Virus record (IMG/VR): IMGVR_UViG_2875722834_000003
Location: 1 to 39,463 of that record
DNA from: a virus
Lineage: Duplodnaviria; Heunggongvirae; Uroviricota; Caudoviricetes
DNA: 39,463 nt
Direction: 5' to 3' (one strand)
Both the position numbers and the translations under genes were made by a program. The notes under the pieces were generated by a model, which had not been told where the DNA came from, ran no database searches, and saw only the letters and a program-made list of their open reading frames with translations. Shown here piece after piece: positions 1 through 39,463 of the stretch. Position 1 is the stretch's first letter; every line of letters starts with the position of its first letter.

Positions 1-1284
1 TTACTTCTTCGCCTCTGCAACCACTTTACTACCCACGCCGCGGTTATTGTATTCCCACATGCGGTTGTAGTTAGTGTCATTCAGATTGCGCTGTATTTCG
101 TCGTTATCATCTACGCTGCCGGTATTACCCGCAAACGGACGATTAGAGATCACCGCATCGGCCCACGGTTTAGCCGTGTTAAAACCTTCGTTGATGGCGC
201 TATCACGGATCACCACCTGACCGTTGGTATTGGCATCAACATCCAGCGAGCGGCCCAGTTGCGCCACACCATCACCGAAAGCATTGAAACGGCTGTTTAC
301 GGCGAGGAAACCGTAGTAAATGTTGGACAGCGTAGCCGGTGCAAACACATACGCTTCTTGCTGAGTACGTGAGTTCACCACGCGGAATTCGGTGTTATCG
401 AACACCACTGCGCCGCGACCAGAAACGATATCCACATCCCCTTCAATGTAGCTGTTGGTCACCAGCGTACGCGGCTGACGATTCGTTTCCAGACGGTTCT
501 GCACACCGCTGTTGGTGACAAAGAAGGTGTTCTGACGACCGAGAATGTTAACGTTGTTAATCTGTACCTGGTCACCATCAGTACGCAGTGCCACCGCCGG
601 ATGGTTACCTGCATCTACGCTATCGCCCAGCGTGTTTTCGATGGTCAGATTTTGCAGTTGCAGGCCATTGTTTTGTGACCAGAAGACCGCAGAGCAGAGA
701 ACACCGATACTGTCGCTGCGTTTGCTCTGGCAGCTATCGTACATATACCACGCTGGTTTACCTGGCATATATTTGCCGCGCGGGTTGACGTCGTGACGCC
801 AGTCGGCAGGGCTCATGCCACCATCAAGGGAAAGCCCAATCTTCACATCAATCGGTTTTTCACCTGTACCGTACAGAGTAATTCCACCCGGAGCGGCAGG
901 GACATATACCGTTCCCTGATACTCACCAGGCATCACGGCAATATACTGGCGCTTGTTGGTACGCTTGATAATTGCCGCATCTACCGCCGCCTGAATCGTG
1001 GTATGCGTTACACCTTGAGTGCCCGCCGGGCCGACAACAAAGTCAGGTTGCGCAGGCAGGGTAATCGGGGAAGGATTCCACGCTGCAGCACCTGGTGTCA
1101 GGGATGCAAAATAGTGTTGAGCATCGAAATTCTGCGCTTCTTTTGCCGACAGAATCGGGCGAGAAGAGGTACCAGGCGCGGTTTGATCAGAAGGACGTTG
1201 ATCGGGCGGGGTTGAGCTACAGGCGGTCAGCGTCACGCCAAAAGCCAATGCCAGCGCCAGACGGGAAACTGAAAATGTGTTCAC
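1..1284 (-). CDS. ybhC: Host outer-membrane lipoprotein YbhC (pectinesterase-family putative acyl-CoA thioesterase)
   Basis: ORF-track 427 aa with GTG start at 1282-1284 and stop at 1-3; N-terminal lipoprotein signal ending LTAC; recalled identity to E. coli YbhC, the gene next to attB-lambda. From memory, not searched. Confidence 0.8.
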   Translation of the reverse strand: MNTFSVSRLALALAFGVTLTACSSTPPDQRPSDQTAPGTSSRPILSAKEAQNFDAQHYFASLTPGAAAWNPSPITLPAQPDFVVGPAGTQGVTHTTIQAAVDAAIIKRTNKRQYIAVMPGEYQGTVYVPAAPGGITLYGTGEKPIDVKIGLSLDGGMSPADWRHDVNPRGKYMPGKPAWYMYDSCQSKRSDSIGVLCSAVFWSQNNGLQLQNLTIENTLGDSVDAGNHPAVALRTDGDQVQINNVNILGRQNTFFVTNSGVQNRLETNRQPRTLVTNSYIEGDVDIVSGRGAVVFDNTEFRVVNSRTQQEAYVFAPATLSNIYYGFLAVNSRFNAFGDGVAQLGRSLDVDANTNGQVVIRDSAINEGFNTAKPWADAVISNRPFAGNTGSVDDNDEIQRNLNDTNYNRMWEYNNRGVGSKVVAEAKK

Positions 1285-1320
1285 AGGTTGCTCCGGGCTA
1301 TGAAATAGAAAAATGAATCC

Positions 1321-1440
1321 GTTGAAGCCTGCTTTTTTATACTAAGTTGGCATTATAAAAAAGCATTGCTTATCAATTTGTTGCAACGAACAGGTCACTA
1401 TCAGTCAAAATAAAATCATTATTTGATTTCAATTTTGTCC
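1321..1440. other. attL of lambda type: host B arm, 15-bp core, phage P' arm
   Basis: Core GCTTTTTTATACTAA at 1331-1345 read directly; upstream GTTGAAGCCT matches the bacterial B arm; downstream sequence matches the lambda P' arm (IHF-like TATCAATTTGTTG about 1371-1383; arm-type repeats CAGGTCACTA, TCAGTCAAAA, TAAAATCATT at 1391-1420) and runs into int. Confidence 0.9.
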
Positions 1441-2489
1441 CACTCCCTGCCTCTGTCATCACGATACTGTGATGCCATGGTGTCCGACTTATGCCCGAGA
1501 AGATGTTGAGCAAACTTATCGCTTATCTGCTTCTCATAGAGTCTTGCAGACAAACTGCGCAACTCGTGAAAGGTAGGCGGATCCCCTTCGAAGGAAAGAC
1601 CTGATGCTTTTCGTGCGCGCATAAAATACCTTGATACTGTGCCGGATGAAAGCGGTTCGCGACGAGTAGATGCAATTATGGTTTCTCCGCCAAGAATCTC
1701 TTTGCATTTATCAAGTGTTTCCTTCATTGATATTCCGAGAGCATCAACATGCAATGCTGTTGGGATGGCAATTTTTACGCCTGTTTTGCTTTGCTCGACA
1801 TAAAGATATCCATCTACGATATCAGACCACTTCATTTCGCATAAATCACCAACTCGTTGCCCGGTAACAACAGCCAGTTCCATTGCAAGTCTGAGCCAAC
1901 ATGGTGATGATTCTGCTGCTTGATAAATTTTCAGGTATTCGTCAGCCGTAAGTCTTGATCTCCTTACCTCTGATTTTGCTGCGCGAGTGGCAGCGACAGG
2001 GTTTGTTGTTATATGGCCTTCAGCTATTGCCTCTCGGAATGCATCGCTCAGTGTTGATCTGATTAACTTGGCTGACGCCGCCTTGCCCTCGTCTATGTAT
2101 CCATTGAGCATTGCCGCAATTTCTTTTGTGGTGATGTCTTCAAGTGGAGCATCAGGCAGACCCCTCCTTATTGCTTTAATTTTGCTCATGTAATTTATGA
2201 GTGTCTTCTGCTTGATTCCTCTGCTGGCCAGGATTTTTTCGTAGCGATCAAGCCATGAATGTAACGTAACGGAATTATCACTGTTGATTCTCGCTGTCAG
2301 AGGCTTGTGTTTGTGTCCTGAAAATAACTCAATGTTGGCCTGTATAGCTTCAGTGATTGCGATTCGCCTGTCTCTGCCTAATCCAAACTCTTTACCCGTC
2401 CTTGGGTCCCTGTAGCAGTAATATCCATTGTTTCTTATATAAAGGTTAGGGGGTAAATCCCGGCGCTCATGACTTCGCCTTCTTCCCAT
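1419..2489 (-). CDS. int: Integrase, tyrosine recombinase (lambda Int)
   Basis: 356 aa, MGRRRSHERRDLPPNLYIRNNGYYCYRDPRTGKEF..., recalled as essentially identical to lambda Int; overlaps xis and abuts the P' arm as in lambda. Confidence 0.95.
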   Translation of the reverse strand: MGRRRSHERRDLPPNLYIRNNGYYCYRDPRTGKEFGLGRDRRIAITEAIQANIELFSGHKHKPLTARINSDNSVTLHSWLDRYEKILASRGIKQKTLINYMSKIKAIRRGLPDAPLEDITTKEIAAMLNGYIDEGKAASAKLIRSTLSDAFREAIAEGHITTNPVAATRAAKSEVRRSRLTADEYLKIYQAAESSPCWLRLAMELAVVTGQRVGDLCEMKWSDIVDGYLYVEQSKTGVKIAIPTALHVDALGISMKETLDKCKEILGGETIIASTRREPLSSGTVSRYFMRARKASGLSFEGDPPTFHELRSLSARLYEKQISDKFAQHLLGHKSDTMASQYRDDRGREWDKIEIK

Positions 2490-27203: not shown

Positions 27204-28622
27204 ATGCCGATTCAGCAACTTCCGCTTATGAAAGGTGTCGGCAAAGACTTTCGAAACGCCGACTATATCGACTATCTGCCAGTGAATATGCTGGCTACAC
27301 CAAAAGAAATCCTTAACAGCAGCGGATATCTTCGCTCATTCCCGGGCATTGCCAAACGTTCTGATGTGAACGGTATATCGCGCGGCGTCGAGTACAACAT
27401 GGCGCAGAGTGCTGTATATCGCGTGTGTGGGGGCAAGCTGTACAAAGGAGAAAGTGAAGTCGGTGATGTTGCCGGAAGTGGTCGTGTATCAATGGCGCAT
27501 GGTCGGACATCTCAGGCTGTAGGCGTTAATGGCCAACTGGTCGAGTATCGTTATGATGGCACGGTTAAAACAGTCTCAAACTGGCCTACAGACAGCGGAT
27601 TCACGCAGTATGAGTTAGGTTCTGTTCGTGACATTACGCGCTTACGCGGGCGTTATGCGTGGTCAAAAGACGGCACTGATTCATGGTTTATCACTGACCT
27701 TGAAGACGAATCGCATCCTGACCGCTACAGCGCACAATATCGCGCAGAATCGCAGCCGGACGGTATCCTCGGCATCGGCACATGGCGAGACTTCATCGTC
27801 TGCTTTGGTTCATCGACGATTGAATATTTCTCCCTGACTGGTGCAACCACCGTTGGTGCAGCTTTGTATGTCGCACAGCCATCACTGATGGTGCAAAAAG
27901 GCATCGCCGGGACTTACTGCAAAACGCCATTCGCTGATTCCTATGCGTTTATCAGCAATCCGGCAACAGGTGCGCCGTCTGTGTATATCATCGGCTCCGG
28001 TCAGGTATCACCAATCGCCAGCGCGAGCATTGAGAAAATACTACGCTCCTACACTGCTGATGAACTGGCTGATGGCGTGATGGAATCGTTGCGCTTTGAT
28101 GCTCATGAGTTGCTGATTATCCACCTGCCTCGCCACGTCCTAGTGTATGACGCATCTTCAAGCGCTAATGGTCCGCAATGGTGTGTGCTGAAAACAGGCC
28201 TGTATGACGATGTGTACCGCGCTATCGACTTCATTTACGAAGGCAATCAGATAACGTGCGGCGATAAGCTGGAATCTGTTACCGGGAAACTGCAATTCGA
28301 CATCAGCAGCCAGTACGACAAGCAACAAGAACACCTGCTGTTTACTCCGTTGTTCAAAGCAGATAACGCCAGAGTTTTCGACCTTGAAGTTGAGTCGTCA
28401 ACTGGCGTTGCGCAGTATGCTGACCGCCTGTTCCTCTCTGCAACCACTGACGGCATCAATTACGGACGTGAGCAGATGATTGAGCAGAATGAACCGTTCG
28501 TTTACGACAAACGCGTTTTGTGGAAGCGAGTCGGGCGCATCAGGAAAAATGTCGGCTTCAAATTGCGCGTTATCACGAAGTCACCTGTCACTCTGTCTGG
28601 TTGCCAGATAAGGATTGAGTAA
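27204..28622 (+). CDS. Packaged-DNA stabilisation / tail hub protein (P22 gp10 type)
   Basis: 472 aa, same length and position as P22 gp10. Confidence 0.75.
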
Positions 28623-33957: not shown

Positions 33958-34218
33958 TTAGTTGCTGTCTTTTTTATATAGCTCCTTTAGCGTGTCAAAG
34001 ACAATTTTCTTAACCATATCAGATTGTTGTTCTGCCATACGCTCTGCATCGTCAATGTAAACTGGTGCAGAGCTTTGTTTAGCCAATGATTCTTCAATCG
34101 CTGCAATTATCTCTGAGTTCAGCGACCTGTTATTCATCTTCGCGCGCTGTTTAATTTTCGCGTGGAGTTCATGCGGAAGTCTCAAGTGAAACTGCGCCTC
34201 GTCGTATTTGCTGTACAT
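33958..34218 (-). CDS. mnt: Mnt-like ribbon-helix-helix repressor
   Basis: ORF track 33958..34251; ATG 34216-34218 gives 86 aa MYSKYDEAQFHLRLPHELHAKIKQRAKMNNRSLNSEI...DDAERMAEQQSDMVKKIVFDTLKELYKK, aligning with recalled P22 Mnt (HFNFRMPMEV...NDAERLADEQSELVKKMVFDTLKDLYKK). Confidence 0.8.
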   Translation of the reverse strand: MYSKYDEAQFHLRLPHELHAKIKQRAKMNNRSLNSEIIAAIEESLAKQSSAPVYIDDAERMAEQQSDMVKKIVFDTLKELYKKDSN

Positions 34219-34291
34219 CCTTGATGCCTCACCAGTTGGGTGGAATGGCATCGTAACCTACTGGATAAATACTCAATAGTACCATTTCGGT

Positions 34292-34349: not shown

Positions 34350-34850
34350 TCACCTACTCAACAGATGGTCAGCAACCATGTTTGCTGCCTTATAAGCTAT
34401 AGCAGCTTCATCAATGGTGTTGAATCTCCCAAGGGTTATGTTTTTACCTGAGACATTTATCTGAGCTTGCCATTGATTTCTGGCTTGACAGAAAGTTACC
34501 CCCTTGATTCCAGCATTGCTATTTCGAGGTCCGACATTTAATGCATTTACGACTCTGCTGACATCCCTAAGGTTTGAGATTGCGTTATTTCTTCTGTTTC
34601 TATCAATGTGGTCAATCTCTTGTTTTGGCCATTCGCCATATACATACAGCCAGGCAAGTCTATGTGCAAAATATCTTACGCCATCAATATTAATTGCGTT
34701 ATATCCATAAGAAATTGTGCCAGCAACTTTCCCAACAGCACCTCTGGCGCTTAATTTCTTTTTCCAAGTGAAAATTCCTGTTTCTTTATTGTAATCGAGA
34801 ACCTCCATAAGGCGCTCCCGAGTTACTACCTCGTGACGTCTCTTACTCAT
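34350..34850 (-). CDS. HNH endonuclease with AP2-type DNA-binding domain (homing-endonuclease-like)
   Basis: ORF track 34350..34892 begins at TTG; ATG 34848-34850 with GGAG 7 nt upstream gives 166 aa; motifs [13 protein letters not shown]...[18 protein letters not shown] (HNH) and C-terminal [15 protein letters not shown]...[17 protein letters not shown] (AP2-like); about 37 % GC. Confidence 0.75.
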
Positions 34851-34872
34851 TATTTTCTCCGGAATGTTTATT

Positions 34873-37020
34873 ATGCCAGAACAATTATACAACGTTGTTG
34901 TTTCACAACCAAGTCAGTTATTTACTTTAGCTCGCTCGTTTAAAGCAAATGCCAATGGCAAAATTTATATCGGTAAAATTGACACTGACCCTGTAAATCC
35001 TGAAAACCAGATTCAGGTTTATGTGGAGAACGAAGACGGCTCTCACGTTCCTGTATCCCAGCCAATCATCATTAACGCCGCTGGTTATCCGGTATATAAC
35101 GGACAGATTGCCAAATTCGTTACCGTGCAAGGCCATTCTATGGCTGTTTATGATGCATATGGTGCTCAACAGTTCTATTTTCCTAATGTGCTTAAGTATG
35201 ACCCTGACCAGTTCAGGGCAATTATAGAGTCACCAGAAGGTGCTGGACACGTAGGATATCAGTATCGCAGGAATACAGGTGCGACCATGAGAATGGTAAG
35301 CGATGTGCTGGATGAGCGTGTCAGCCTTTGGGATTTTCACTGCGATTCATCAGGTAACGTAATTCAGCCCGGGCCAACTGTGGATAGTCGGCAGTACATT
35401 CAAAAGGCTATTGACGCGATATACGAAGCTGGCGGTGGAACACTAATTATCCCAACGGGAACATGGTATCTAAACTCGTATGGTGTTCCAGATAAAATTT
35501 CTAACTATGGTGGAGTAATCCACTGGCGCTCTCGTGTCAATATTCACTTTGAAGCCGGTTCTACGCTAAAGCTGACAAACTACTTCAATGAACGCGGCTA
35601 TTGCGTTATCTGTGGTTTTGACGGTAATGACCCCGCAACGTCTGGCGATTTGCGCGATGCAATGATTACGGGTAATGGAACCATTCACTGCGGGGACAAT
35701 ATACAGGCGGTGGGAGGCTCGCTAGCATATGCGATAGGCACTGGGAGATCATACAACGTAAGCGTAAGGGATATACACATTACTGGTGGGGACCTGACTT
35801 GGGCCGTGACACTTGGATGGAATGGTTATGGCAATAATACTGTTGTAGATGGGGTCACTGTTACTGAGGTTAAGAAGACTGAGGTTGCCCGTAACGTTGA
35901 CCAGTCCCTCTTCTATGTGGGGTGTCAGTTCTCTGGTATACAGAACTGCTATATGAAACCTTCTGAATCAGGGTTGGCCGCAAAAATATCAGCAGCAGTG
36001 GAACTTCACCAGTCTGGCACTTTTTGCCTGAACAACCAGATGTATGGATTCATGCGTGGTGTTTATGTTGTTTTGCACGGACGTGAAACGGCAGGCAGCG
36101 GTCTATTCATGAACAATATTCGTGTATCTGGTAACACTGCGTACATTAATGGTCAGTTTGTGACTGTAGGTGCGGATAGTATAGATTTTGATACTCATGT
36201 TTCTGATGTAATTATATCCGATAACATTTGTACCATTATGAACCCTGTAGACTCTGCTCCATTGGTTAGATGCTTTATATCATCTGACTTGTTTGTAGAG
36301 GCCCCGCCGGATAATGAAACTGCGCGCGTACTGGTTGATGGGAATATCTTCTTAGCGCCAACAACTACCCCAGACAGTTTATTTTTCTTTTACAGAGTAA
36401 GCAGCCGTGGGTTTTACTTTAGCAACAACATGTGTGATTGCCGTCGTATAATTTCTGGGGATGGGGCCGGCACTGGTATTGTAGAACTACGCGATATAAT
36501 CTGGGACGCATCCAATAAGATTGGGCCTACTTGGATAGGTCAACGTGGCGGTAATGCGAACATGTTTGAGTTTTACGTCGCCAATATTTTACGCTGTAAA
36601 TTTGAAATATCTATGCCATATGTGGACACTAGCATGGCTAGTATTTTCTACGCGCCAGATACGGCCAATATAACGTTTACAGTAGTCAAAGTTGATCCAG
36701 AAAATATACCATCTTCTGTAACTGCAGTTAGCATCTCAGAGGCTAACAAAAACCGGGGAACAAATTACTTTGAGTTCCCGGAAACTATATCCTTCTCATC
36801 TTTCAACACCGCGGGAGCAGTATTTTGCTACAGCACATCAACTAACTATGCCTGGTGTGGAAGTGCAACGGCATTGTCAAAGTCAGGAGTTTCTGGGCTG
36901 GTAACTCCTGGTGAATATGGTGTCAAAGATAACGGTCAGCTTGGTGGGGTAGGATATAATGATACAGGCGCAGCCAGGAACTGGAGCCAGCGTGTTTTAT
37001 TAAAAAGCGCAATAGAATAA
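34873..37020 (+). CDS. Tailspike protein (P22-type head-binding domain plus beta-helix receptor-binding/depolymerase domain)
   Basis: ORF track 34864..37020; ATG 34873 chosen by alignment to the P22 tailspike N-terminus (NVVVS..., [33 protein letters not shown]); the remaining about 600 aa differ from P22. Confidence 0.85.
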
Positions 37021-37027
37021 ATGAAAT

Positions 37028-37046
37028 AGCCCGCTTACTGCGGGCT
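37028..37046. terminator. Bidirectional terminator between convergent tailspike and gtrC
   Basis: AGCCCGC-ttact-GCGGGCT perfect 7-bp stem with U-rich flanks on both strands. Confidence 0.6.
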
Positions 37047-37055
37047 ACTTTACCA

Positions 37056-38543
37056 TTATTTTTTGTATACCAGTATTGTCATATCTCCCTTATTTAAAAC
37101 TTTTTCAGGCTTCCCATTTTTAGATGAAATGGCGTTGATACACGACTGTATGTCTCCGCACTTTTCATGCCCATCAATAGCGATAAAGTATTTTCCATTT
37201 GATGGCATTGCTTCTTTACTGTACCAACTTCTCATGGTTTGATATCGAGGTGAGTTAAAATCAATAGACCCATTTTCAGAAATATCTACAGGTGCGATAA
37301 CTACCTCCCCATTGGAAGCCCAGAATGTAGTTAGGCTTTTATTCCAGTAGTCACCATAACCATAACTCAAATTATTATCTAGTAAAAACGCAGAATAATC
37401 CTTTATCTCCCGTTCAGAATCTTCGTAAGTTTTATTTCCAAAGTTAAAGGTTATAGCGCTCGACAGTACAAATAAAATGCAAATGGCATATGCTAGCCAT
37501 TTTGTCATTCTGCTATGAGCAACTGAATATACTATGAACACAAAAGGTGCAATATTCACAAAAAAGCGAGGTATAGGCTGGCTTGGGTCTGGATTGCTTA
37601 CTGTATAAGCTGAGATAATTCCAGCGGCGGAAAGTAGGGATAGCATAAAAAAATAACTAGAACTATCTTTCCTCAGAATCCCTGTTATGCATACATAACA
37701 AAATAACCCCCCCACAAGAATAAATGAGGCTATATATAGGGAGTGCTGCCTGAGGAAGAAAATGTTAAACATTTCACCAACCGTGAGAATCAGTTGATGT
37801 GCGTTCCCCTGCATTGTAACAAAATCAACAATATTAAAAGGTTGAGAGTCGATTCCCATTAATTTTGGTATTGTATGATTCAGAGCAATACCATAAAAAA
37901 TAGCAAGGAGAATGAAATTTACTAATTTTGTTTCTTTTCTGATGACAAAAATGAGTTCAGTAATCAGAATTGGAAGGAGATAAGTAGGCGCAGCCCACAT
38001 ATCTGAGGAACAAACTAATAACCCAAAAATGCCAACTATGGCATATGATAAAAGCCCTTGATCTCTATGTGCTTTCATTGCCATAAGGCATGTTAGCATT
38101 CCAAAAGCAACAGTAGAGTAGTGAGCAAATGGATGCTGAACAAATCCATCTGTCCAATATATGTGCGGCAAAGCAGCAAGAGGCACTGCGCAAACTAGTA
38201 ATGAACTTCGCTTGTTTAATTTCTTTGATATTGTAGATGCGATAATTATGACGCTGAATGCAAAAAAAGCAGATCCAAATATCAGCATTGGAGCGCCATA
38301 ACTTCCTAATATCAAATAAAACAGAAAGTATACAGGGTACAATGTAAAGTACCAGTTATCCGGTGTCGGGTTCCAATCAGTAAGAGACTTGAAACCGTGT
38401 TCCTTAAACTCAAGCCATACAACAGGACCATTTACTCCATCAGCATCTATTCTGAAGTATATATAAGAAAGATAAGAGATAGATATTGCGCATAAGAGCA
38501 ATATTACAATCTCTATTGATTTTTTATTTATTAGGTGTTTCAT
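37056..38543 (-). CDS. gtrC: GtrC-like serotype-specific O-antigen glucosyltransferase (polytopic membrane protein)
   Basis: 495 aa, multiple hydrophobic segments plus a C-terminal soluble domain; directly downstream of gtrB with ATGA overlap; about 27-33 % GC in sampled lines. Confidence 0.6.
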
Positions 38544-39463
38544 TTTTTATCCTTGTTACTTAAAATATATCTAGGCCTGTTCTTGGATTCGGTGTAAATC
38601 CTCCCGATGTACTCACCAAGCACCCCAATGCCAATAAGTTGTACGCCACCAAGAAACAGAATAGAAACCAGCAATGAGGGGTAGCCTCGCACCGGATTGC
38701 CAAAGGCGATAGTGTCTATAATCATCCATGCACCATAAATGAACGACAGGCCTGCTACCAACAATCCAATATAAGTCCACATGCGCAGAGGGAAGGTAGA
38801 GAAACTGGTTATCCCCTCAAGGGCAAGGTTCCATAACTTCCAGCCATTGAATTTTGAATCACCGGCAATCCTTTCAGCCCTGGTGTATTCAACGATATCA
38901 GTGTTCCCGCCAACCCAGCTAAGAATGCCTTTCATAAAGAGGTTGCGCTCAGGAAGAAGCTTGATGTTTTCCACCACCGCTCGGGACATCAGGCGGAAAT
39001 CACCTACATTCTCCTCAATTTTAGGGTTGCTGATTTTGTTGTGCAGCTTGTAGAACCACTCAGCGGTCTTCCGCTTAAGTCTTCCATCAGTTGATCTGTC
39101 TGTTCGTTTCGCCAGTACCATTTCAGCGCCAGCCTGCCACTTATCGATCAGATGAGGAATGACGTTAATAGGATCCTGCAGGTCTACATCGATAGGGATT
39201 ACGGCTTCGCCTGTCGCATGGTCTAGCCCTGCAAATAAAGCAGGCTCCTTGCCGAAGTTGCGGGTGAATGACAACGCAACAACTAGAGGGTCTGCAATTG
39301 CCAGAGATCTGATTATTGACTCTGTAGCATCCTTGCTGCCGTCGTTGATGAAGACTATTTCAACCTCATATTGCTGAAGATCTTCAAACTCGCGCACTGT
39401 TTTATAGAAAATTGGAATCGCGTCTTCTTCATTGAAGACAGGAACGACCAGAGATATCTTCAT
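38540..39463 (-). CDS. gtrB: GtrB bactoprenol glucosyltransferase (GT2 family)
   Basis: 307 aa [26 protein letters not shown]...; GT2 motifs (INDGSKD, DVDLQDP) and two C-terminal TM helices; start codon is the last three bases of the window. Confidence 0.85.

What the first reader, a model, noticed from the sequence alone, without database searches (positions are those of the whole stretch)
37056..39463. gtrB-gtrC seroconversion operon at the right prophage end, convergent with the tailspike
A GT2 bactoprenol glucosyltransferase (GtrB) and a polytopic GtrC-like protein run on the minus strand with an ATGA overlap; gtrA and attR should lie just beyond the window. GtrC is very AT-rich in the lines I sampled, which is typical of a horizontally swapped serotype-specific module. 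Together with an O-antigen-directed tailspike this gives lysogenic conversion that modifies the phage's own receptor. The exact sugar and linkage specificity of this GtrC cannot be read from sequence.
Basis: partly seen in the sequence, partly recalled or inferred. Interest (0 to 1): 0.4.

Follow-up and report, generated by a model that had tools for sequence, protein, structure and literature searches.

The report
Prophage gtrABC O-antigen glucosylation operon
The right end of this E. coli prophage carries an ordinary three-gene operon that adds glucose to the cell's surface O-antigen; its specificity gene is an unannotated distant relative of Shigella GtrI and travels with the phage's O-antigen-cutting tailspike.

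Summary
Window 38540-39463(-) encodes GtrB, which is 85-89% identical to characterised GtrB of SfI/II/IV/V and P22. Window 37056-38543(-) encodes a 495-aa polytopic protein. The two genes overlap by ATGA and converge on the tailspike across a 35-bp hairpin.

The window is identical to CP025739.1. In that record gtrA (120 aa) starts directly upstream of gtrB, and a lambda-type attR core lies about 710 bp past the window end, next to ybhB.

The 495-aa protein has no Pfam or NCBIfam hit and is annotated 'hypothetical' everywhere. It is nevertheless a full-length homologue of SfI GtrI (34% identity, E 5e-90, all 44 family-invariant residues shared). It is unrelated to GtrII, GtrIV, GtrV and P22 GtrC. 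Its AlphaFold model (pLDDT 89.6) has the GT-C fold (ArnT, PglB/STT3). Its GC content is 36.4%, against 46.2% for gtrB.

An extra finding: the 3' third of gtrB, all of gtrC and the tailspike receptor-binding domain form a nearly invariant core of about 3.5 kb in prophages at four or more attachment sites. The flanks of that core are mosaic.

The acceptor sugar and linkage remain unknown. This is a new member of a known kind and of modest interest.

The parts
38540..39463 (-). gtrB: GT2 undecaprenyl-phosphate glucosyltransferase (307 aa; D92-x-D94 motif; two C-terminal TM helices)
   Evidence: ORF. Pfam PF00535 E 1.2e-29. PHROG GtrB E 3e-179. PDB 5EKP GtrB E 5e-89. 85-89% aa identity to GtrB of SfIV/SfV/SfI/SfII/P22.
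37056..38543 (-). gtrC-position gene: GtrI-family GT-C-fold serotype-specific glucosyltransferase (495 aa; about 11-13 TM helices plus a C-terminal soluble domain of about 120 aa; [D/E/N]-x-D35 in the first loop; PTPDNWYF motif)
   Evidence: ORF. 34% identity over 502 columns to SfI GtrI, E 5e-90. Family profile hits GtrI at E 1e-177 and no other typed Gtr. All 44 invariant residues are shared with GtrI. AF2 pLDDT 89.6. Foldseek hits to STT3/PglB/ArnT/AftB/ALG/Emb. No Pfam or NCBIfam hit.
38540..38543 (-). ATGA overlap of the gtrB stop and the gtrC start (translational coupling)
   Evidence: Read directly from the sequence.
37024..37050 (.). GC-rich hairpin between the convergent tailspike and gtrC stops; likely a bidirectional terminator
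   Evidence: Terminator-like hit on L008 11494-11520, equal to window 37024-37050. P22 has an annotated terminator in the same position.
34864..37020 (+). P22-type tailspike with an HK620-like endoglycosidase receptor-binding domain. The real start is probably the ATG at 34873, giving 715 aa.
   Evidence: Pfam Head_binding E 1e-64 and HK620_9_C E 6.5e-18. HK620 TSP structure 2VJI E 1.6e-146, with the residues aligned to chain D230 and E263 conserved. 52% identity overall and 32-45% beyond aa 180. Sister loci-716 aa.
35456..38956 (.). Nearly invariant core cassette (3' third of gtrB + gtrC + terminator + tailspike receptor-binding domain) shared by most sister prophages at different att sites
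   Evidence: 0-2 mismatches per locus across this span in 5 of the 6 loci binned, against 35-50 mismatches per 250 nt in the flanks; L014 also diverges inside the receptor-binding domain. gtrC differs at 0/1488 nt in 14 loci.
1331..1345 (+). attL core (lambda core GCTTTTTTATACTAA), the left prophage boundary next to ybhC
   Evidence: Exact match to the annotated lambda core. ybhC NCBIfam E 3e-220.
1419..2489 (-). Lambda integrase (356 aa, 99.4% identical to lambda Int)

Best explanation
This is the lysogenic-conversion (O-antigen glucosylation) operon gtrA-gtrB-gtrC of an apparently complete prophage of about 38.9 kb. The prophage has P22-like virion and injection genes and uses lambda Int/att to sit between ybhC and ybhB.

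Mechanism, taken from the established Gtr pathway:
- GtrB, a GT2 enzyme on the cytoplasmic face, makes undecaprenyl-phosphate-glucose from UDP-glucose.
- GtrA, a 4-TM protein encoded just beyond the window, flips it to the periplasmic face.
- The 495-aa GtrI-family GT-C enzyme transfers the glucose onto one defined sugar of the growing O-antigen repeat. It probably uses the acidic [D/E/N]-x-D35 motif in its first loop, which I infer to be periplasmic.

The three genes are tightly packed: TAATG overlap for gtrA/gtrB and ATGA for gtrB/gtrC. They end at a hairpin shared with the convergent tailspike gene. The promoter aligns with the mapped P22 gtr promoter but keeps only one of the four GATC sites needed for Dam/OxyR phase variation. 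Expression is therefore predicted to be constitutive, as in the Shigella Sf phages.

gtrC and the tailspike receptor-binding domain travel as one invariant block. The glucosylated O-antigen is therefore most likely the one this tailspike recognises, so that conversion alters the phage's own receptor (superinfection exclusion and an antigenic change).

Shown here: gene identities, family membership, predicted fold, operon structure, linkage, and the presence of gtrA and attR. Inferred: the donor is glucose, the acceptor is O-antigen, the effect on adsorption, and constitutive expression.
For: GtrB identity rests. GtrA is present and 91% identical to the Sf-phage GtrA.

The third protein is a GtrI homologue at 34% identity over its full length, E 5e-90. 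The family profile finds GtrI at E 1e-177 and none of GtrII, GtrIV, GtrV, P22 GtrC, a DUF6056 protein or the HK620 Wzy-like protein. All 44 invariant residues are conserved in GtrI.

The AF2 model has pLDDT 89.6 and pTM 0.88. Its best PDB matches are all GT-C enzymes that use polyprenyl-phosphate sugars: STT3, PglB, AglB, ArnT (TM 0.61), AftB, ALG3/9/12 and EmbA/B.

Homologues in Citrobacter/Enterobacter, another E. coli lineage and Pantoea also sit directly after gtrA-gtrB.

All three ORFs are intact in 15 loci. gtrABC is retained in degraded prophage remnants L001, L006 and L016.

The invariant gtrC + tailspike-RBD block is documented. The promoter alignment and GATC counts come, read against PMC2909390. 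The pathway model is taken from PMC7685785, and GtrI function from PMC3636060.
Against: No biochemical or serological data exist for this protein, and 34% identity to GtrI does not fix the acceptor or the linkage.

The host O-serogroup could not be determined with the tools. It is therefore not shown that the strain's O-antigen carries a Glc side branch, nor that glucosylation blocks this tailspike.

The periplasmic location of the D35 loop and of the C-terminal domain is inferred from the GT-C fold match and was not tested. Constitutive expression is inferred only from the missing GATC/OxyR sites.

The zero-difference result for gtrC is partly due to ascertainment. Loci L001-L008 were retrieved by exact GtrC protein identity. 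Loci L009-L016 were retrieved through GtrB, so they are not subject to that bias.
Confidence: 0.85

Rival explanations
1. The cassette glucosylates a periplasmic acceptor other than the O-antigen, such as enterobacterial common antigen, LPS core, a capsule or a protein. The tailspike linkage would then be coincidental.
For: GT-C enzymes act on very diverse acceptors, including lipid A (ArnT), proteins (PglB/STT3) and arabinan (Emb/AftB). The acceptor cannot be read from sequence.
Against: The only typed relative, GtrI, acts on O-antigen. The gene occupies the gtrC slot of an otherwise canonical gtrAB operon. It is inherited as one invariant block with an O-antigen endoglycosidase-type tailspike domain.
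Confidence: 0.06
2. The operon is a silent or decaying cargo remnant with no current function.
For: No expression data are available. The gene is AT-rich and foreign in composition and could be H-NS silenced. It is annotated only as 'hypothetical protein'.
Against: All three ORFs are intact in 15 independent loci. The coupled overlaps and the promoter elements homologous to the mapped P22 promoter are preserved. The cassette is kept even where the rest of the prophage is degraded (L001, L006, L016). In gtrB, synonymous codon differences outnumber non-synonymous ones by about 4 to 1 between alleles (64-66 against 15-17).
Confidence: 0.05
3. The 495-aa protein is not a glycosyltransferase but another polytopic O-antigen enzyme: a Wzy-like polymerase, a WaaL-like ligase, or an acyltransferase like the Salmonella 'family 2' GtrC.
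For: There is no Pfam or NCBIfam hit. HK620 carries a Wzy-like O-antigen modification gene at the same position.
Against: The family profile gives no similarity to the HK620 protein. All confident structural matches are GT-C transferases, and the remaining hits have TM scores of 0.2 or less. Homology to GtrI covers the full length.
Confidence: 0.02

Closest known systems
gtrA-gtrB-gtrI cassette of Shigella flexneri phage SfI (type I antigen: Glc alpha-1,4 on GlcNAc)
   Same: The three-gene order is the same. GtrA is 91% and GtrB 87% identical. The third protein is a full-length homologue with all 44 family-invariant residues. The upstream region is homologous and has a single GATC. The cassette lies next to attP.
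   Different: The third protein is only 34% identical, so acceptor and linkage are likely different. SfI is a myovirus integrated at thrW with a different integrase and carries tail fibres, not a tailspike. Here the virion and injection genes are P22-like and the int/att module is lambda's.
gtrABC of Salmonella phage P22 (O:1 factor), convergent with tailspike gene 9
   Same: The architecture is identical: tailspike -> terminator <- gtrC-gtrB-gtrA-attP. GtrB is 85% and GtrA 79% identical. The promoter core is homologous.
   Different: P22 GtrC belongs to an unrelated sequence family. P22 has four GATC sites with OxyR half-sites that give phase variation, whereas this element has only the GATC4 equivalent.
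Phage HK620 tailspike and O-antigen modification locus
   Same: The virion and injection genes are P22-like. The tailspike has the same fold family, with the aligned catalytic Asp and Glu retained. An O-antigen modification gene sits convergent with the tailspike next to att.
   Different: The receptor-binding domain is only 32-45% identical, so the O-antigen is probably a different one. HK620 carries a single Wzy-like gene rather than gtrABC.
GT-C superfamily enzymes ArnT and PglB/STT3
   Same: The predicted fold is shared, as are a polyprenyl-phosphate sugar donor, an acidic motif in the first loop and a C-terminal soluble domain.
   Different: Sequence identity is about 10%. The acceptors differ (lipid A, proteins). 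The protein is not detectable by Pfam PMT_2 or related models.

Membership tests
GtrB (GT2 polyprenyl-phosphate glucosyltransferase) | GT-A/GT2 catalytic domain with a DxD motif plus two C-terminal TM helices, and close homology to characterised GtrB | tested here: met
   PF00535 E 1.2e-29. 5EKP GtrB E 5e-89 over residues 2-303. 85-89% identity to Sf/P22 GtrB. D92-V-D94 and two hydrophobic C-terminal segments are read from the translation.
GtrA (Und-P-Glc flippase) | A GtrA_DPMS_TM protein of about 120 aa encoded immediately upstream of gtrB | tested here: met
   It lies outside the window but is present in the identical record CP025739.1 (L008 8719-9081): PF04138, PHROG GtrA E 2.5e-70, 91% identity to Sf GtrA.
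GtrI family of serotype-specific glucosyltransferases | Full-length sequence homology to typed GtrI | tested here: met
   34% identity over 502 columns, E 5e-90. Profile E 1e-177. 44 of 44 invariant residues shared.
GtrI family of serotype-specific glucosyltransferases | Third gene of a gtrA-gtrB-gtr(type) operon | tested here: met
   The same holds for homologues P0002, P0005 and P0009. One orphan exception was found in Sodalis.
GtrI family of serotype-specific glucosyltransferases | Transfers Glc from Und-P-Glc to a defined O-antigen sugar and converts the serotype | not testable with these tools
   This needs LPS chemistry or serology. The host O-serogroup could not be obtained.
GT-C fold glycosyltransferases | Polytopic N-terminal module with the GT-C fold and an acidic motif in the first extracytoplasmic loop | tested here: met
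   The AF2 model is confident. Foldseek gives probability 1.00 to STT3/PglB/AglB/ArnT/AftB/ALG/Emb, with TM up to 0.61. D35 is invariant with D/E/N at position 33. This rests on prediction, not on an experimental structure.
GtrII-type (Pfam PF14264), GtrIV, GtrV and P22 GtrC families | Sequence homology to those typed proteins | tested here: not met
   No significant BLASTP or profile similarity. No Pfam hit.
Phase-variable (Dam/OxyR) gtr operons of the P22 type | Two GATC pairs overlapping OxyR half-sites upstream of the promoter | tested here: not met
   There is one GATC (-58 from the gtrA ATG), against four in P22 (-135, -122, -71, -58). The definition is from PMC2909390.
Lambda-type site-specific integration module | Lambda Int, the 15-bp core at both prophage ends, and insertion between ybhC and ybhB | tested here: met
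   Int is 99.4% identical to lambda Int. The reconstructed attP is 93.6% identical to lambda over 468 bp. The core lies at window 1331-1345 and at L008 8359-8373. ybhC and ybhB flank the prophage.

The most novel reading that the evidence does not exclude
The invariant block of about 3.5 kb (3' end of gtrB + gtrC + tailspike receptor-binding domain) is a self-contained 'recognise-and-then-mask' cassette. It moves between P22-like prophages by recombination in the conserved gtrAB genes and in the tailspike head-binding sequence. Its GtrI-family enzyme creates a so far unassigned glucosylated E. coli O-antigen variant that specifically blocks its partner tailspike. The sister pair in L025 (GtrC 53% identical, tailspike 51% identical to this one and 76% identical to HK620's) would then be a co-diverged second cassette for a related O-antigen.
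Probability: 0.4. Interest if true: 0.45.

Novelty: new member of a known kind. Interest (0 to 1): 0.3.

Why it matters
Prophage gtr operons are a main source of O-antigen sub-serotype variation, phage resistance and vaccine or serotyping mismatches. Several E. coli O-antigens carry Glc side branches whose genes are not in the O-antigen cluster (PMC7685785).

This GtrI-family lineage is annotated 'hypothetical protein' in E. coli, Enterobacter and Pseudescherichia, and Pfam and NCBIfam miss it. Genome-based O-typing therefore overlooks it.

The family comprises about 350 clusters at 50% identity with E <= 1e-10 and deserves a profile model.

The tight linkage with a tailspike receptor-binding domain offers a practical way to pair uncharacterised Gtr enzymes with their O-antigen substrates.

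Tried and rejected
- Pfam, NCBIfam and PDB sequence searches with the 495-aa protein gave nothing. Scanning all 19 family members against Pfam gave only one marginal PMT_2 hit at E 0.003. PHROGs gave only weak hits to unknown-function families over the C-terminal part.
- Megablast against 5,426 complete E. coli genomes found no gtrC, only about 78% matches to gtrB. NZ_CP025739.1 is not in that collection, so the flank was recovered by exact-protein look-up instead.
- Identifying the host serogroup failed. Papers citing CP025739 use it only as the tLST1 reference or as a 16S match and give no serotype.
- A literature search linking HK620, O18A1 and gtr found no paper characterising this cassette.
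- Rfam found no RNA family anywhere in the window.
- The repeat search in 36800-39463 found only short chance matches.
- P22-type Dam/OxyR phase variation was considered and rejected because three of the four GATC sites are absent.

Full report
**1. What is in the sequence**

Bases 38540-38543 read tcat on the + strand. On the coding strand the upstream gene's TGA therefore overlaps the downstream ATG as ATGA.

The tailspike ORF 34864..37020(+) converges on them. The 35-bp spacer contains a GC-rich hairpin at 37024-37050. P22 carries an annotated terminator in the same position.

The 495-aa gene is 36.4% GC (GC3 31.5%). gtrB is 46.2% GC (GC3 51%), and the prophage as a whole is 47.7% (profile).

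**2. Genomic setting and what lies beyond the window**

- The window begins at the stop codon of host gene ybhC (NCBIfam E 3e-220) and ends at the gtrB start codon.
- The 15-bp lambda core GCTTTTTTATACTAA occurs at 1331-1345 and marks attL.
- The adjacent integrase is 99.4% identical to lambda Int.
- Exact-protein look-ups found both proteins in many E. coli assemblies.
- One of these, CP025739.1 (L008/L013), is identical to the last 6463 nt of the window.
- In that record a 120-aa GtrA (PF04138; PHROG E 2.5e-70; 91% identical to Sf-phage GtrA) ends in a TAATG overlap with gtrB.
- The reverse complement of the lambda core (attR) lies 694-708 nt beyond the window end and is followed by ybhB, bioA and bioB.
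- The reconstructed attP is 93.6% identical to lambda attP over 468 bp.

The prophage measures about 38.9 kb from core to core. It combines P22-like virion and injection genes (gp7, gp20, gp16, tailspike; Pfam calls) with lambda's integration module.

**3. GtrB**

- Pfam GT2, E 1.2e-29.
- PHROG 'GtrB', E 3e-179.
- Full-length match to the solved Synechocystis GtrB 5EKP, E 5e-89, and to ArnC structures.
- 85-89% amino-acid identity to GtrB of SfIV, SfV, SfI, SfII and P22.

This is an orthologue of the characterised bactoprenol glucosyltransferase, so the donor made is very probably Und-P-glucose.

**4. The 495-aa protein**

Curated libraries do not recognise it:
- Pfam and NCBIfam give nothing.
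- PDB sequence search gives nothing.
- PHROGs give only weak hits to unknown-function families.
- Every public copy is named 'hypothetical protein'.

Even so, tblastn against phages finds SfI gtrI at 33.7% identity over 96% of the query, E 9e-70. I extracted the typed proteins from annotated phage records and compared them:
- BLASTP gives E 5e-90 to GtrI and nothing significant to GtrII, GtrIV, GtrV or P22 GtrC.
- A profile of 19 family members finds GtrI at E 1e-177. It finds none of the others. It also misses a DUF6056 third gene and a GtrII-like third gene from other E. coli prophages, and the HK620 Wzy-like protein.
- All 44 residues invariant in the family alignment are also present in GtrI. 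These include D35 (with D/E/N at position 33) just after TM1, and the PTPDNWYF motif.

The AlphaFold model is confident (pLDDT 89.6, pTM 0.88). Its significant PDB matches are exclusively GT-C glycosyltransferases that use polyprenyl-phosphate-linked donors. These are STT3, PglB, AglB, ArnT (TM 0.61/0.57), AftB, ALG3/9/12 and EmbA/B. All other hits have TM scores of 0.2 or less.

Hydropathy and the model indicate about 11-13 membrane helices followed by a soluble alpha/beta domain of about 120 residues.

Homologues in Citrobacter/Enterobacter (82%), a second E. coli lineage (53%) and Pantoea (33%) also sit directly after gtrA-gtrB. One in Sodalis is an orphan beside an integrase.

An exhaustive profile search finds 351 clusters at 50% identity with E <= 1e-10. 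The family is moderately large and currently has no model in the libraries searched.

**5. Mechanism**

The pathway is taken from established work (reviewed in PMC7685785; GtrI function in PMC3636060). GtrB charges undecaprenyl phosphate with glucose. GtrA flips it to the periplasmic face. The GT-C enzyme then transfers glucose to a specific O-unit sugar there.

- Shown here: the identities, predicted fold, operon structure and context.
- Inferred: glucose as donor, O-antigen as acceptor, and the catalytic role of D35.
- Unknown: acceptor sugar and linkage. GtrI adds Glc alpha-1,4 to GlcNAc, but 34% identity does not carry that specificity over.

**6. Regulation**

The region upstream of gtrA aligns with those of SfI/SfII and P22. 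By alignment with the mapped P22 promoter it contains TCGATC, a 17-nt spacer and TAGACT, at window-equivalent 39857-39885. The generic promoter scan did not report this site.

P22 has four GATCs, at -135, -122, -71 and -58 from the ATG. These match the two GATC pairs within OxyR half-sites that drive phase variation (PMC2909390). This element, like SfI and SfII, has only the -58 GATC. I therefore predict non-phase-variable expression. This is an inference.

**7. Linkage with the tailspike**

The tailspike has the P22 head-binding domain and an HK620-type body. Its match to the HK620 structure 2VJI has E 1.6e-146, and the residues aligned with chain D230 and E263 are conserved. From my own knowledge I take these to be the catalytic Asp339 and Glu372 of HK620. 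Identity is 80-100% up to residue ~180 and only 32-45% beyond it. This suggests a related enzyme chemistry acting on a different O-antigen.

I compared 14 other loci carrying the cassette. They lie at four or more chromosomal sites: the lambda att site, dacD-sbcB, pao/thrW-proA and one further site. Some are degraded remnants.
- gtrC differs at 0 of 1488 nt in every one of them.
- In L001-L007 the 5' two-thirds of gtrB differs at 85-91 nt, mostly at synonymous positions.
- gtrA differs at 7-41 nt in 13 of the 14 loci; L012 is identical.
- In 250-nt bins, the invariant stretch runs from about window 38956 (in gtrB) through gtrC and the terminator to about window 35456-35206 (tailspike residue ~115-200). 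Divergence rises sharply on both sides. One of the six loci binned, L014, also diverges inside the receptor-binding domain.

Half of the loci were retrieved through exact GtrC identity and are biased towards this result. The other half were retrieved through GtrB and show the same pattern.

gtrC and the tailspike receptor-binding domain are thus one recently disseminated unit. It is exchanged by recombination in the conserved flanks.

A sister cassette (L025) pairs a 53%-identical GtrC with a tailspike 76% identical to HK620's, again at the lambda att site.

**8. Verdict**

The element is a canonical prophage gtrABC seroconversion operon. Its specificity gene is a new, unannotated and recently spread member of the GtrI family. 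That makes it a new member of a known kind.

What remains unknown is the substrate O-antigen, the linkage, and whether glucosylation blocks the partner tailspike. The host serogroup could not be recovered with the available tools.

Noticed in passing
window ~35206/35456-38956 (L008 9588-13088/13338): gtrC is 0/1488 nt different in 14 sister loci at four or more att sites. Together with the 3' end of gtrB and the tailspike receptor-binding domain it forms a nearly invariant block of about 3.5 kb. The flanking gtrA, 5' gtrB and tailspike head-binding sequences are mosaic (up to ~10% divergent), and one locus (L014) also diverges inside the receptor-binding domain.
   Followed up: yes
beyond the window: L008 8588-8630 (window-equivalent ~39914-39956); lambda ~27473-27510: A conserved hairpin element of about 40 bp (CACAAAGCCTTGCAATCCAGTGCAAAGCTTTGTG) lies 90-130 nt upstream of gtrA. 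It is shared by lambda (next to the tI/sib hairpin), P22, SfI and all gtr loci examined. Homology between prophages at different att sites starts exactly here, so it may act as a recombination joint. The SfII record annotates it as a putative terminator.
   Followed up: partly
window 1-2489 and L008 8359-8560: The prophage combines P22-like virion and injection genes with a nearly pure lambda integration module: Int 99.4% identical, attP 93.6% identical over 468 bp, and a tI/sib-like hairpin. It is inserted at the classical lambda attB between ybhC and ybhB.
   Followed up: yes
window 34350-34892 (-): An HNH-AP2 endonuclease ORF sits between mnt and the tailspike. As the longest ORF it overlaps the tailspike start by 29 nt. 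Some sister prophages lack it (L010, L012), and others carry HNH genes elsewhere (L002, L004). The first ~9 tailspike residues differ from those of sister loci, which is consistent with a homing-endonuclease insertion. The tailspike probably starts at the ATG at 34873 (715 aa).
   Followed up: partly
L001, L006, L016 (loci): gtrABC is retained intact in heavily degraded prophage remnants (truncated tailspike in L001/L006, none called in L016; most virion genes lost). This suggests selection on the host to keep the O-antigen modification.
   Followed up: partly
L025 (GCA_965259615.1): A sister cassette at the same lambda att site pairs a 53%-identical GtrI-family protein with a 710-aa tailspike 76% identical to HK620's. 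This looks like co-divergence of the modification enzyme and the receptor-binding protein.
   Followed up: partly
L030 (HK620 36788-38014): HK620 carries a single Wzy-like 'O-antigen modification protein' convergent with its tailspike, in the slot occupied here by gtrCBA. The position next to att behaves as a general O-antigen-modification cargo slot in P22-like phages.
   Followed up: no
window 33958-34251 (-): An Arc/Mnt-type repressor ORF (97 aa as the longest ORF; 86 aa in sister annotations) is present, but no ant gene was seen between it and the tailspike in this region. This may be an immI remnant as in HK620.
   Followed up: no
E. coli genome collection: None of 5,426 complete RefSeq E. 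coli genomes in the local collection matched gtrC by megablast, and NZ_CP025739.1 is absent from the collection. Yet the exact protein is indexed in 161 blocks of the large assembly collection. The source genome and its close relatives therefore appear to be missing from the local collection.
   Followed up: no
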